This document shows positions 15,001-21,000 of a DNA stretch of 60,962 nucleotides, piece by piece. Numbering within the stretch: the stretch's first letter is position 1; every line of letters begins with the position of its first letter. This DNA is from an uncultured Verrucomicrobiales bacterium (GTDB lineage: Bacteria; Verrucomicrobiota; Verrucomicrobiia; Verrucomicrobiales; DEV007): NCBI GenBank assembly GCA_938091905.1, contig CALKOM010000040.1, positions 1 through 60,962 of the forward strand, given 5' to 3'. A program made the position numbers.

Positions 15001-18000
15001 CGCAGCACCGCCATCGAGTTTGGCCTTTCGGGTTTCCGATTGGAAGGCCTCGACGTCTCTGTCCGGGACAGGGAGAGTGGACGGTGCTGGCGTGACTGGC
15101 AAGGTGGGAGCACCTGGGGGAGCTGCTTCGGCTGCGAGTTCGCTTTGCTCAGTCACTTCTTCCATCTCGATAGGGGCCTCAGCGACATCGTCGGTTGGTT
15201 GACTGTCTATCTCGCCCTGTAAAAGCTCTGGATGTAGCTGTGCTTGTGTTTTTGGAAGGGGAATGGCGTCGAGGATTTCGGGTAATGGTTCGCTAATTTC
15301 GTTGGTGGTTTGAGCTTGAGTCTTGGTGGGTTCCTGGGGCTCGGTTGTTGGTTGCTGCTCTGACGATGCTAGAGAACCTGGAGTGGTAGGTTCGGTTTTA
15401 ATATTGGTGGGGCTTTCGTCGATGGAGAGGCCATCGCGGAATCGTTGATCTTCCACTTGGATTGAGTCTTGGCGTTTTCCATCGATGTTAGGGGTAGCGT
15501 TGCTACCGTCACCTGGTCGTTCGCTTTGTGCCACGGTGTTGCGGTCAGAGACGAAGGCGGGCTGGTTGGGGCTGGTTAGGCTTTCCTGAGGAACGGTGGT
15601 TCTGATGTAACCGAGTTCTCGCTCGTCGATTTCTTCTTCAGGTACCGCTTCATCTGGCGCAGATTCCTGCCCAAGAGGAGCGGATTCTGTGATGATCCAG
15701 TCTGCAAGGGGAAGGACGACTTCGGTGGGCAAGGGTGCGGCATCGTCCGGAGAAGTGCGCTCTGCTTGTAGCCACCGCGCGACTGGTGGAATGAGAAGTC
15801 CATGCAGGCCTAGCGAAACCAAAACGGCAACGATCAAGAGGCGTCGGGCGGTTCTGTCGGAAGTCTGGATCAGGTCAGCGGTCACCGAAGAGCATCTTAT
15901 CGTGGTGGCGGGCGTAGTGAAACAAATATTGCTGGGCGTAGCCTGCGTATGGGCCGAAATACTTCGCGGCGTAGGCTTGCATCTCTGCCCGAGGCCATTT
16001 CTTCTTCTTGCCGCGAGGAGCGTAGAGACGTTTGAGCACTCGTTCTACCCAAACGTCGATGGGAAAGGCTGCGAGGCGCCCGTAACCGAACAGGAGGACG
16101 CAATCGGCGATCTTCTCACCGACGCCGTGAAGTTCGCACAAGCGCTCGCGGGCACGAGTGTCCTCTTCAGTTTCGAGATCGTCTAGTGAGAACTCTCCTG
16201 AGGCAATTCGTTCCGCCGCGAGAGCCAGCGACTTTGCACGGTAGCCAAGACCGCATTCTCGAAGGGCCTCTTCCCCGGCGGCTGCTAACTCGGCTGGGGT
16301 AGGGTAAGCCCAGACGGTGTGTTCGCCGACCTTGCATGATTTACCAAAACGCTGGCGCAAGGTTAGGGAGATCTTGCGAATGTGGGGTACTTGCTTGAGC
16401 GAGGAAGTGATGAAGGAGGCAAGGCATTCCCATGTGGGCTGACGGCATAGTCGCAGGCCGGGCGTGTAGTCCATGGCCGCCGCTAGGTGAGAGTCTCTGC
16501 CTGGAAATGTTTTGAGGATGTGGGAGAGATCGAGATCAAGCCCGAGATAACGTTCCAAAGTCTCTTCCTTACAACCTTGGTAGAGTAAGGTATTGTCCGT
16601 CCGAACATGAGAAATCCATACCGCTTTTTCTCCCAAGGCGGCGACTTGACCGTCACCATCAGCTGTCCAGTGAAAGACTTGACCACAATGCAGAGTGGCG
16701 TTGAGATCGAGCGCGCGATCTCCTAGGTCCAACCGTTGGCACTTCATGATCGGGATGACCCTACCTGATGAAGTAACTTAGGTTTTCAAGTTCCAAAGCG
16801 AGATCAACGTTGTTGACGGTCACGTTTTCAGGGACTTGAAGAACCGTTGGCGAGAAGTTGAGAATGGCTTGCACGCCAGCTTCAACCAATTCGTTGACGA
16901 CGTTTTGCGCGGCCTCACTAGGGACGGCGATGATGGCCATCCGGACTTGATGATTGCGTATGAAATCTGCCATCGTGTTTGCCGAATACACGGGCACCCG
17001 AGCCCCTTCGGTTCGACGCTCCCGAGTCGGGGCGAGATCGAAAGCTGCGGCTATTTCGAACCCTTCTTTGTTGAAGCCTTTGTAGCGTAGGAGAGCTGAA
17101 CCAAGGTTTCCCACACCAACCAAGATCACGGGTTGGTAGGAAGTTGTCCCAAGGACGTCGTTGAGGACCCCCGAGAGTGCCTTTACGTTGTAGCCTAAGC
17201 CACGCGTACCGAACTGCCCGAAGTAAGTGAGGTCTTTTCGCAGCTGCGTCGACTTCACGCCTGCAGCGGAGGCGAGTGCCTCTGAACTTACAGTCTCCAC
17301 ATTGTTCTCGATCAGTCTTAAAAGACTACGTTGGTAGATCGAAACACGATAAATCGACTTTCGAGGCACCTCGACTTTCGACATTCCTTGTGAATTTTCG
17401 CGCGATTGACTGATAACCCATCGTTACGAATGGATGAGAATTCTGTCAACTTACGAAAGTTCCAAGATACCTTGTAACTCTTTAAGTATTAAGTGGCGAG
17501 TGCGTCAGTCAGGTATTCCATAGGCTGAAAGTGCTCGATGAGGATTTCCTTCTGCTCGCCGCGGAACATGCGAACCTGCTTGATGTCGAAATTAGGCGTT
17601 TTATGAGGTGCAAAGAGGATGTCATCATGAGTGGCGTTGGCATGCTTTTTGAACAGGTCTGGAGTAATGTGCCCTCCCAAGTGATCATCGCGCCCGGTCG
17701 CGAGATGACAGGTGCCGAGCACCTTCTCGTCCTGAATATCGGCTCCTGACACTGGGAGCACTTGGGTGCCGAATCCAAGCTCACCGAGCACGCCCGTCAT
17801 TGGATCCGCTTTCAGCATGGCATTGTGCTCATCAATCGTTGCCTGCACCCCCTCCACCAACGTCGACTTGCGAATCTGGCCATCAGAGACCTCTAACAAG
17901 CCGAGTGTTCCGTCCTCATATTTGAGCGGAAACAAACCCTCAGCACCCGTGGGCACAAAGTAAACCTCACCTGCCGGGAGGTTCGCAATATCAGGTGTAA

Positions 18001-21000
18001 GCCCGTGACAGAGCCCATGGCTCTTCTGGGCCTCCTGCCCACCAAGATCTAACCTACAAGTCGTTTCCCCATGGCCTTCGATAGAAAAGTCAATTTCGAT
18101 AGTGTCAGCTCTGGTCAGGGCGAGGCGCAACTTCTCCGCATCTGCGCTCACGTCGCGGTAGTCCACGCTGAGCCCTGAGTTTATGATCACCTCGTTTAGC
18201 CCATGAAGAGTTGCTCCCCGAAAATGATGCTGTTTGGCGAGCGCAGTCAGCGGTGCGGTGGCTGAAAATGTGGAGATACAGAGAATAATGTCGTAATTTG
18301 GGTAGACATCCTTCTCCAAGCTCACCTCTCGCCCGGTACTCTGAACAGCTTCGTCTCGTAGATCCAAATTACTTCCGCCCGAGATGTGGTAAGCATAGAA
18401 CTCGCCGCCGAGCATACCCAGCGCTTCCATGACACCATCGTGCAGACCCCGATAAAAAACCTCATAAGCCTTCCGTTGAACAGCCAGAGAATCGTCCTCC
18501 AGGAACGCGAAATCCGTCACATCGTGAAGGTCTTCAAGGTCTATTAAGACACACACCTTCATACCTTCCGTTGGCGTGAAGACAGAGCCTAGCAAACGTT
18601 TAAGGCTAAATGGTGGAAACTCGCGAGCATCTGCTGCGCTTACTATGGTAGACTGGTCGTTTGGAGCATTCATTTTGTTCGTCGGGGATACGCACCGAAA
18701 CCATGGAAGGATTCTCTAACAACCTCTTTGCAAATAAATTTCTTAGAATCTCTGTTTATTGATAAAAATCTCCATAACGCTGTTTGGCCAATGTTCGGCA
18801 GCGTTCAGTGATCTCTTCTACGGTCTGCATTTTCATGAGCTCTGTGACTAGATCCTCACATTCAGCACTGTTCAGGTGCCGGAGTGCATGTTTTACCCGA
18901 AGGATTTGGCTGGGGCCGACACTTAATTCGTCAACTCCAAGACCTATCATGACTGGTGCGAAAAGAGGATCACCAGCCATTTCACCACACACCCCGACCC
19001 AGATATTGTGAGTATGTGCGGCTTTCACGACCATTTCGATCAGGCGAAGAATGGAGGGATGTGCGGGTTGGTAGAGGTGGGCGACGCGTTCGTTTATACG
19101 ATCGACGGCGATAGTGTATTGAATAAGATCGTTTGTTCCAATACTGAAGAAATCGACCTCAGGGGCTAACTGATGAGCCATGACTGCTGCGCTTGGCAAT
19201 TCAATCATGCAGCCAACTTCGAGATTCTCATCAAACGGCAAGCCTTCCTTTCTCAGCTCTTCCTTACATTCTTGCAAGAGGGCATTGGATTGCCGCAGCT
19301 CCTCTATTCCAGATATCATCGGATACATGATTCGCACCTTCCCCCGCCTGCTCGCTCGGAGACAGGCCCTCAGCTGAATCTTGAAGGCATCTGTTTCGGC
19401 AAGGCTCACACGAATGCCTCGCCAACCTAAAAACGGGTTGGGTTCCGCTTGGCGGTCGTCGGCGTAGAACTTATCGGCGCCAACGTCTAGAGTCCGGATG
19501 ATAACGCCATCGGGATCGACGCTTTCGGCCACGTCACCATAAGCCTTGGCTTGCTGGTCTTCGTCAGGATGCCTGTCTCGCTCAAAGTAAAAGAACTCAG
19601 TTCGATACAGTCCAATGCCTTTCGCGCCACGCCGTTTGACGGCGTCGACTTCGTGGCCGAATTCGATATTGCCTGACAGAATGATCGATTTGCCATCGGC
19701 GGTTTGGGCCGGCTCTCCACGTAGTTCGTCCAGTCGATCGTTGAGTGCTGCCTGTTGCTCAGACAGTCGCTCATATTTCCTCCGAGTTTCCTCAGTGGGG
19801 TTGACAACGAGCACTCCATTGAAGCCATCCAAGATCACTTCTTGTCCCGCTCGAAGTTTGCCTTTGGGAACCTCTAAGCCTACGACTCCGGGAATCCCCA
19901 GAGAGCGTGCCATGATGGCTGTATGTGATGTGAAACTCCCTAACCGTGTTGCAAATCCTAACAGGCGCGATCTGTCTAGCCCGACAGTGTCCGACGGGGC
20001 GAGGTCCTGGGCAAAGATAACGTGTGGCGTTTCATTGCTAGCAGAGGCGCTATCGTCATCCGATAAATTTGCTAGAAGCCGACCGGCAACGTCTTCGATA
20101 TCGATTGCACGCTCTCGTAAATACGGGTCGTCAATGCTCTTGAGCGAGTCGATGTAGCGCAGGATGACATTGTAATAGACCGAATCTACATTTGCATGCT
20201 CTTGACGAAGTTGCTTAAGGACTTCGTCGATAACGGTCTGATCTTCGAGCACTAACAGGTGAGCATCGAAGATATGGGCTTCGCTGTGATCACCACCTCG
20301 GTCGAGGAGCTGTTTTTTGAGTGCCTGGATCGTTGTGCGCGTCTTGAAGATGGCCTCTTGAAAGCGGGCTTCCTCAGATTCCAGCTGTTCAGGTTGTATG
20401 GCCCACCTCCGGGGCTCCTCGAAATGACGGTCTTTAAACTGGATCTCGCCGGTGGAAATGCCTCGAGAGACAGCCAGACCTCGAAAGCGGCATTCTTCAG
20501 CTGGATTGGCTGTCATGATTGGGGGAAGAGAGCACCGCGAGCGACGGCGGTGGTGGTTACTCTTCGTCAAATCCCCCCGTAACCAGGGTTTCCAAGGCAT
20601 TGATTGCCTCCGATTCATCATCGCCCTCAGCCATGACCAAGATCCGAGAGCCCTCACCGGCAGCAAGCATCATCAGTCCCATGATGCTTTTTCCATTGAT
20701 TCGCTCATCATCTTTCTCCACCCAGATGTCCGCTTTGAAGGAATTGGCAGCCTTAACAAACTGTGCCGCTGGGCGAGCATGTAAGCCGTGCTTGTTATTG
20801 ATGGTCAATTCCTTCTGAATCATAGCGTCCTCCAGTTGCTGTCCGTCAATAGCGTCTCTACCGGTCGGGCGCGCACCATACATCGTATTGGGTTTCAAGC
20901 TAAGACAAATTCTAGACTTCGAGATTCCGAGGTGAAAAAGGCGAAACTGGATCGGAAATGGGGTCTAAAGTGCTATGCTTGCCGCTTTCATGAGGATTTC

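What a model noticed while it worked through the whole genome (the two positions that open the first line are those of the whole stretch)
17489..18673. Unannotated M29-fold metallohydrolase paired with a stand-alone OvoA-type methyltransferase, without the ovothiol sulfox [...]
g01366 (394 aa, no family hit) has the M29/NicX fold with a conserved metal-ligand set. It co-occurs exactly with a stand-alone OvoA C-terminal methyltransferase (g03988, C125:13439-14197) and is usually its operon partner, in genomes with no OvoA sulfoxide-synthase hit. The pair defines an undescribed two-enzyme pathway, possibly for a methylated histidine or thiohistidine compound.
Evidence so far: Present in 9 of 31 class genomes; TIGR04345 stand-alone in the same 9, the tenth hit being in a 703-aa frame in a genome without g01366. 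Adjacent, same strand, in 8 of 8 other genomes and within 2.5 kb in 36 of 80 further loci. TIGR04344 gave no match in 20 genomes including these 9. Foldseek: NicX dioxygenase E 3e-13, then PepS/AmpT and crocagin CgnB/E; E236, E298, E316, H323, H349, D351 invariant in 18 sequences. PMC8433421 (passages) analysed only full three-domain OvoA.
(Added by a program. Inside this text positions count along the whole contig: contig position 1 is position 1 of the stretch shown here. "Call 12" and the like, gene names such as g00115 and contig names such as C1 are that model's own, and its searches are not shown. The text may have been shortened before it was handed on; [...] marks where a part breaks off. 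The agent that wrote the report below was given it as the finding of a first reader that could run no searches.)

Follow-up and report, generated by a model that had tools for sequence, protein, structure and literature searches.

The report
Candidate new enzyme for making ovothiol
A conserved, unstudied metal enzyme of air-breathing Verrucomicrobia travels with the methyltransferase that finishes the antioxidant ovothiol and is missing where the known ovothiol synthase is present, so it may be a second, unrelated way to attach sulfur to histidine; this is inferred from gene patterns and has not been tested at the bench.

Summary
Observation confirmed and extended. The 394-aa gene has the M29/NicX fold and a full dinuclear site (E236, E298, E316, H323, H349, D351; 185 of 185). 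In 401 class genomes, all 182 carriers also hold a stand-alone OvsM/OvoM-like methyltransferase (MT). One natural fusion exists, and carriers are 30 of 51 genomes with a COX1-family gene against 0 of 100 without.

New evidence is a displacement pattern. No carrier tested (112 by TIGR04344, with positive controls in two of the three calls) has OvoA, and 0 of 17 OvoA genomes tested have the gene. In family f97 and in G409 the native MT is kept, the M29-fold gene is not found, and OvoA has a diverged MT domain. Eight carriers hold an OvsA-type synthase and only this MT.

Best reading (about 0.5): the MT makes ovothiol from 5-thiohistidine, and the M29-fold protein is an unrelated stand-in for OvoA's sulfoxide synthase. 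Rivals: a hydrolase releasing thiohistidine from a conjugate, or another substrate. The site is not NicX's and lacks the aminopeptidase Tyr. No chemistry is shown; the displacement rests on few lineages, with three exceptions.

The parts
17489..18673 (-). M29/NicX-fold protein, 394 aa; proposed OvoA-independent supplier of 5-thiohistidine. Its partner MT lies outside the window at G000:C125:13439-14197 (-).
17621..17968 (-). Codons 236-351, holding the six dinuclear metal ligands E236, E298, E316, H323, H349, D351, and D330 at the position of the AmpT/AmpS/PepS Tyr
   Evidence: invariant in 185 of 185; E236-H323 mapped to AmpS; Tyr position; H349/D351 mapped through an archaeal bridge protein
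18008..18028 (-). Clade-specific motif Q216-K-S-H219-G-x-C222; S218 aligns with NicX substrate-binding E177
   Evidence: K217, S218, H219 in 185 of 185, C222 in 183 of 185; NicX mapping through a bridge protein
18251..18265 (-). N-domain motif S137-A-T-A-P141, kept also in the distant clade that has no MT partner

Best explanation
The two genes form an OvoA-independent ovothiol pathway of aerobic Verrucomicrobiota. Step 1 (inferred, least certain): the M29-fold protein, probably iron-loaded at its dinuclear 4-carboxylate/2-His site, joins histidine C5 to a sulfur donor, most simply cysteine and with O2, so doing the job of OvoA's unrelated sulfoxide-synthase domain. Step 2 (inferred): a general PatB-type C-S lyase frees 5-thiohistidine, as OvoB does. 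Step 3 (inferred, about 0.8): the stand-alone MT methylates N-pi to give ovothiol A, and can also serve an acquired OvsA or an OvoA with a diverged MT domain. Shown here: fold, ligand set, coupling, fusion and the exclusion pattern. Not shown: any reaction, the metal, the sulfur donor, O2 use.
For: Coupling: the same 30 of 151 phylum genomes; 182 of 182 carriers in 401 class genomes; 78 of 80; fusion P0123. MT identity: nearest structures are OvsM (44%), OvoM and the OvoA MT domain; Y5, E6, Y14, H18, N152, R156, P182, W195, R237 are kept in at least 186 of 187; OvsM does not methylate plain histidine (bioRxiv 2024.04.10.588772). No OvoA in 112 carriers or in 48 more by TIGR03440. No M29-fold gene in 17 OvoA genomes of 7 families. 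Family f97: 15 of 16 have OvoA with a diverged MT domain, 15 of 16 keep a stand-alone MT, 0 of 12 tested have the gene. G409 shows the same inside a family with 11 listed carriers. The three orphan MTs put in the tree nest in the paired clade at 100/100; G539 keeps the two downstream genes seen in carrier G001. Four genomes whose OvoA has an intact MT have neither gene. Eight carriers have OvsA-motif synthases and only this MT. COX1 pattern 30 of 51 against 0 of 100. PatB lyase in G000, 368.5 bits against 340. The fold already hosts Fe/O2 chemistry (NicX) and non-peptidase chemistry (CgnB).
Against: No biochemical evidence. The six ligands are those of Zn/Co aminopeptidases; no M29-fold C-S bond-forming enzyme turned up in my searches. 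The displacement with a retained MT rests on two lineages (f97, G409), and the genome-level Fisher p of 0.018 overstates because kin are not independent. Exceptions: G476, G546 (95% complete) and G571 (90%) have the MT with neither the gene nor an OvoA hit; G469 and G498 have diverged-MT OvoA and no stand-alone MT. The imidazole-anchoring Asp position (METTL9 D213) is Cys in 159 of 187 MTs, including this genome's. That the diverged OvoA MT domains are inactive is assumed; they still score 270-310 bits. An unlinked third gene that inserts the sulfur could not be excluded. Aerobe restriction fits an antioxidant product as well as an O2-using enzyme. Many COX1-positive genomes lack the pair (21 of 51).
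Confidence: 0.5

Rival explanations
1. The MT is an ovothiol-type MT, but the M29-fold protein is a dinuclear amidohydrolase that releases 5-thiohistidine from a conjugate (N-acyl, gamma-glutamyl or peptidyl), either scavenged or made by an unlinked, unknown sulfur-inserting enzyme.
For: Full AmpT/AmpS-type ligand set. N-acetyl-5-thiohistidine is a known enzyme product (PMC12631010). Gain of OvoA would also make such a supply route dispensable, so the displacement pattern fits.
Against: No transporter, ligase or sulfur-transfer gene is a conserved neighbour in 160 loci. The Tyr of the aminopeptidases is replaced by D330. Identity of 52-73% across two or more classes and many habitats is hard to explain by scavenging.
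Confidence: 0.22
2. The pair acts on another N-heterocycle or on a histidine peptide (for example an anserine-like compound or a cofactor), and the pattern with OvoA is coincidence or shared antioxidant function.
For: Asp-to-Cys change at MT position 155 in 159 of 187 and T-to-H at 235 in 173 of 187. METTL9 and CARNMT1 use a related site on histidine peptides (PMC10308197). NicX, the nearest fold, binds a pyridine. Few independent displacement events.
Against: The MT is 37-44% identical to thio/selenohistidine MTs and far from METTL9/CARNMT1 (about 10-15%). The Asp is intact in many soil-type loci. Cys-type orphan MTs are kept across f97 without the M29-fold gene, which needs another source of substrate, and OvoA is there.
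Confidence: 0.2
3. The M29-fold protein is a NicX-like ring-cleaving dioxygenase that degrades thiohistidine or ovothiol, or a non-catalytic binding partner like CgnE.
For: NicX is the best fold match; restriction to COX1-positive genomes.
Against: Only 2 of NicX's 4 iron ligands are shared, and NicX lacks equivalents of E236, E316 and H323 (with PMC7910607). A degrading enzyme leaves the MT without substrate in genomes lacking a synthase. All six ligands are invariant, unlike CgnE.
Confidence: 0.08

Closest known systems
OvoA/OvoB ovothiol pathway (TIGR04344 + TIGR04345; PDB 8KHQ)
   Same: Homologous N-pi MT (36-41% identity); proposed same product; PatB lyase present in this genome
   Different: No DinB/FGE sulfoxide synthase in 112 carriers; MT stand-alone or once fused to the M29-fold protein; the two routes did not co-occur in any genome tested
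OvsM and OvoM stand-alone thio/selenoimidazole N-methyltransferases (PDB 9BXH-9BXN)
   Same: Best sequence and fold matches of the partner (44% and 38-39%; TM about 0.9); stand-alone
   Different: OvsM goes with the NHISS OvsA; OvoM's context was not read (paper not held). Here the partner is an M29-fold protein and position 155 is usually Cys
M29 aminopeptidases AmpT, AmpS, PepS
   Same: Two-domain fold (Z 18-19) and six dinuclear ligands
   Different: 12-15% identity; below the Pfam cut-off; Tyr seven residues after the ligand His replaced by Asp; own invariant pocket residues
NicX/Hpo 2,5-dihydroxypyridine dioxygenase
   Same: Best fold match (Z 26.1); shows Fe/O2 chemistry in this fold; shares the H-x-D pair
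   Different: Mononuclear H265/S302/H318/D320 site; H265 aligns with E298 and S302 with A325; no nicotinate-pathway neighbours seen
Crocagin CgnB/CgnE
   Same: Same fold and, in CgnB, the same six-ligand dinuclear site without aminopeptidase activity; clusters include an MT
   Different: No precursor peptide, dioxygenase or protease as conserved neighbour (ORFs under 80 aa were not screened)
EanB and MES (NHISS-independent ergothioneine synthases)
   Same: Precedent for unrelated enzymes making a thiohistidine (cited in bioRxiv 2024.04.10.588772)
   Different: Those are anaerobic, act at C2 of hercynine and have other folds; this pair is in COX1-positive genomes

Membership tests
M29 aminopeptidase (AmpT/AmpS/PepS) | PF02073 gathering score 27 bits | tested here: not met
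   10.2 bits, E 0.32
M29 aminopeptidase (AmpT/AmpS/PepS) | Two-domain M29 fold | tested here: met
   VIA Z 18.6 and 18.2 over about 300 residues
M29 aminopeptidase (AmpT/AmpS/PepS) | Six dinuclear ligands E, E, E, H, H, D | tested here: met
   distances in the model could not be measured
M29 aminopeptidase (AmpT/AmpS/PepS) | Tyr seven residues after the ligand His (catalytic role recalled, not read) | tested here: not met
   Tyr in PepS, AmpS, AmpT; D330 in 185 of 185
M29 aminopeptidase (AmpT/AmpS/PepS) | Aminopeptidase activity | not testable with these tools
   needs an assay
NicX dioxygenase | Mononuclear H265/S302/H318/D320 site and substrate residues E177, H189 | tested here: not met
   map to E298, A325, H349, D351 and S218, N231 through an archaeal bridge protein (PMC7910607)
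NicX dioxygenase | Pfam PF26233 score | not testable with these tools
   family not in the local library; neighbouring Atlas clusters carry it in 19-22% of members
NHISS (OvoA/EgtB/SenA/OvsA) | DinB + FGE-sulfatase domains with HX3HXE | tested here: not met
   no such hit for this protein; none in G000. The claim is 'works like', not 'is'
Thio/selenoimidazole N-pi MT (partner gene) | TIGR04345 cut-off 170 bits | tested here: met
   213 bits; some orthologues score 139-170
Thio/selenoimidazole N-pi MT (partner gene) | N-x-x-D-R motif after strand 4 | tested here: inconclusive
   N152 and R156 invariant; position 155 Cys in 159 and Asp in 28 of 187. The role of the Asp is taken from METTL9; the OvsM/OvoM structure paper could not be read
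Thio/selenoimidazole N-pi MT (partner gene) | Methylates 5-thio- or 5-selenohistidine, not histidine | not testable with these tools
   only genomic inference
Crocagin-type RiPP cluster | Precursor peptide, CgnC dioxygenase and CgnD protease nearby | tested here: inconclusive
   no conserved dioxygenase or protease neighbour; short ORFs not screened

The most novel reading that the evidence does not exclude
An aminopeptidase-fold dinuclear metalloenzyme forms the C5-S bond of histidine directly: a new class of thiohistidine synthase unrelated to NHISS, EanB and MES. It would make about 45% of sampled genomes of this class (182 of 401) overlooked ovothiol producers and suggest that the stand-alone MT-plus-M29 unit is their ancestral route, locally replaced by OvoA.
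Probability: 0.45. Interest if true: 0.92.

Novelty: new variant of a known kind. Interest (0 to 1): 0.8.

Why it matters
One 2023 paper calls the OvoA/OvoB route the only characterised ovothiol pathway (PMC10696552), while ergothioneine has several unrelated synthases. A second route would add a new C-H sulfurisation chemistry in a hydrolase fold. It would raise the count of producers in an abundant soil, freshwater and marine phylum that a survey of full-length OvoA put at about 1% of hits (PMC8433421). It is directly testable with two small soluble proteins and cultured, harmless strains. Even if the protein proves to be a hydrolase, it would point to an unknown thiohistidine conjugate or sulfur-inserting enzyme.

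Tried and rejected
Local operon: Rex and the 8-oxoguanine glycosylase downstream are neighbours only in the nearest relative L003; PTS, TonB and other neighbours are not conserved. P0280 (787 aa) is not counted as a fusion: its N-terminal half reads like an opposite-frame extension (judged by eye). The distant 28-33% clade (7 loci viewed) has no MT neighbour or shared context. G555's second TIGR04345 hit is a divergent stand-alone paralogue, not OvoA. G269 and G357 first looked MT-negative; the gene is there, scored in two pieces. The context of the Paraburkholderia homologue P0273 could not be fetched. Plasmids hold only distant aminopeptidase-like relatives. An EgtD-like gene near G409's MT was found in no other locus or in G000. 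RNA-library contigs of close relatives from 4 studies cover the gene, but the runs were chosen by this gene and contigs do not prove transcription, so this is not used as support. Earlier scan findings were not open. Literature searches that found no description of this pair; most subscription papers are not in the library.
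Full report
OBSERVATION. The ORF at 17489-18673 (-) encodes 394 aa. It has no NCBIfam family, a Pfam M29 score of 10 bits (cut-off 27), and no meaningful phmmer hit in the PDB. It is one of a large, conserved family: 6733 of 8000 scored candidates, the best 120 at 70-98% identity, named 'aminopeptidase' or 'hypothetical', with Verrucomicrobia wherever an organism is given. The partner at G000:C125:13439-14197 is a 252-aa stand-alone TIGR04345 protein (213 bits).

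FOLD AND SITE. The model (pLDDT 96) matches NicX, then AmpT/AmpS/PepS, then CgnE/CgnB. E236, E298, E316, H323, H349 and D351 are invariant in 185 of 185 core sequences; the first four align with the AmpS motifs. Through an archaeal bridge protein, NicX's iron ligands H265, S302, H318, D320 (PMC7910607, passages) align with E298, A325, H349, D351, and NicX has F194, A292, L300 at E236, E316, H323. So the site is the dinuclear type, not NicX's. It does not prove peptidase activity: CgnB has these six ligands and showed none (PMC10070186, passages), and the Tyr seven residues after the ligand His in PepS, AmpS and AmpT is D330 here. Further invariant residues (S137, T139, R152, H157, K217, S218, H219, N231, R328, H331, K358; C222 in 183 of 185) point to one specific small substrate (inference). 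That four carboxylates and two His are also the ligand count of di-iron oxygenases is my own knowledge.

COUPLING. In 151 phylum genomes the same 30 hold the gene (E below 1e-120) and a full-length stand-alone MT; the two other full TIGR04345 hits are OvoA. In 401 class genomes 182 hold the gene and 180 of them score on TIGR04345 (lists compared by eye, totals agree); the other two have the MT directly downstream. The MT follows on the same strand in 36 of 80 and 46 of 80 loci, many of them cut by contig ends. Of the 44 genomes without an adjacent MT, 42 have it elsewhere. P0123 fuses both domains (a single sequence on one contig). No other neighbour is conserved across families. All 30 carriers have a COX1-family gene; none of the 100 genomes without one is a carrier (PF00115 also takes in related reductases, recalled).

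THE METHYLTRANSFERASE. Its nearest structures are OvsM with 5-selenohistidine (43-44%), OvoM with 5-thiohistidine (38-39%) and the OvoA MT domain (36%). OvsM does not methylate histidine (bioRxiv 2024.04.10.588772, passages and section 4). Most shared motif residues are kept in 187 sequences, but the Asp of N-x-x-D-R, which anchors the imidazole in METTL9 and CARNMT1 (PMC10308197, passages), is Cys in 159 and Asp in 28. The OvsM/OvoM structure paper was not held, so I do not know from a source which residues touch the substrate.

WHERE THE SUBSTRATE COMES FROM. With controls at 688-698 bits, TIGR04344 found no OvoA in 30 and 79 carriers, nor in 3 more in a call without a control. TIGR03440 found none in 48 of the 80 genomes. 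Conversely the gene was not found in 17 OvoA genomes: 7 in the class sample, G008, G104, and 8 more of f97. These fall in two groups. G008, G104, G226 and G311 have an intact OvoA MT domain and neither gene of the pair. G409, G498 and f97 have an OvoA whose MT domain has lost the shared motifs. In f97, 15 of 16 genomes have such an OvoA, 15 of 16 keep a stand-alone MT (13 viewed, all N-L-I-C-R, 46-53% identical to this genome's), and 0 of 12 tested have the M29-fold gene, including single-contig G574; 4 were not tested. G409 is the same case in a family with 11 listed carriers. Three orphan MTs nest in the paired clade (100/100; 36 rows chosen by hand, midpoint root), and G539's is followed by the same two genes as in carrier G001. 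The simplest account is that OvoA took over the M29-fold protein's job while the native MT stayed in use. Seven of the 48 carriers, and G547, hold a SenA-scoring synthase with the OvsA residues Y-M and R-Q-A (7 aligned); the seven lie beside SenB-like genes (2 scanned), lack an EgtD hit and have only this MT. EgtB-type genes occur in 14 of 401 genomes, 12 in one family without the pair and one (G479) with it (only G048 was family-scanned), so that signal is about two lineages.

AGAINST. Three genomes have the MT with neither partner (G476, G546, G571; 90-95% complete), and two have diverged-MT OvoA without a stand-alone MT (G469, G498). Fisher tests (p 0.018 for OvoA, 0.004 for EgtB-type) treat kin as independent and overstate. 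The diverged OvoA domains may have another activity. A hydrolase that frees thiohistidine from a conjugate would give the same pattern; N-acetyl-5-thiohistidine is a known enzyme product (PMC12631010, first third). An unlinked third gene was not searched for. Binding between the two proteins is untested.

MECHANISM. Most likely (0.5): histidine plus a sulfur donor, probably cysteine and O2, are coupled at C5 by the M29-fold enzyme; a PatB-type lyase (G000:C20:32379-33539, 368.5 bits; presence in other carriers not tested) frees 5-thiohistidine; the MT gives ovothiol A. I put 0.8 on the MT's substrate being 5-thio/selenohistidine and 0.7 on the M29-fold protein supplying it by some chemistry. 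All steps are inferred.

COMPARISON AND NOVELTY. The protein fails membership of the M29 aminopeptidases (score, Tyr), of NicX (ligands) and of the NHISS family (fold); the claim is that it works like OvoA's N-terminal domain. PMC10696552 (passages) speaks of a solitary characterised ovothiol pathway; PMC8433421 (passages) kept only three-domain OvoA; PMC13674229 (first fifth) tabulates NHISS neighbours, a screen that cannot see a unit lacking an NHISS. Searches found no description of the pair. The library lacks most subscription papers, and no supplements were read; those of the ovoselenol preprint and the OvsM/OvoM paper may list this MT clade.

VERDICT. A real, tightly coupled, undescribed two-gene unit with a testable lead for a second ovothiol route. 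Interest 0.8; new variant of a known kind, categorically new chemistry if the C-S bond claim holds.

Noticed in passing
L235-L241 (G176, G151, G186, G183, G172, G217, G185); L244 (G547): OvsA-motif selenoxide synthases beside SenB-like genes in Verrucomicrobiales genomes with no EgtD hit and no separate OvsM; the ovoselenol preprint describes OvsA almost only from gammaproteobacteria. G547's copy is split into two frames.
   Followed up: partly
L268, L270, L272-L274, L302-L316: A clade of OvoA proteins with an intact synthase domain and a conserved but strongly diverged MT domain; function unknown.
   Followed up: partly
L034, L124, L128, L130, L136, L137, L146, L154, L277: A thiopurine S-methyltransferase family gene (PF05724) directly follows the MT in 9 loci; a 40% homologue lies 1.8 kb from the PatB lyase in G000:C20.
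   Followed up: partly
L051, L066, L069, L070, L111; L029, L038: A small cupin sits between the two genes in one lineage; a His-rich membrane protein resembling a sterol desaturase (by eye, not scanned) in two other loci.
   Followed up: no
G000:C14:26335-27330 (L334): SenB-like glycosyltransferase (271 bits, cut-off 300) in this genome with no SenA/OvsA found.
   Followed up: partly
window 17388-17405: TTGTGAA half-site just upstream of the Rex-like repressor gene (16761-17384), possibly an operator (consensus recalled).
   Followed up: no
L267:8414-9364: Divergent PF10017 (EgtD-like) methyltransferase 1.6 kb from the orphan MT in G409, an OvoA genome; a candidate N-alpha methylase (speculative).
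   Followed up: partly
P0273, P0125, P0135: Homologues at 42-46% with altered motifs, one from Paraburkholderia; two have lost metal ligands. Contexts unknown.
   Followed up: no
family f10: 12 of 12 genomes carry an EgtB-type gene and 0 of 12 the pair; G048 has egtB-egtD adjacent.
   Followed up: partly
G070:C3:14026-15366: A COX1 match with 10 in-frame TGA codons, suggesting organellar or alternative-code DNA in that bin.
   Followed up: no
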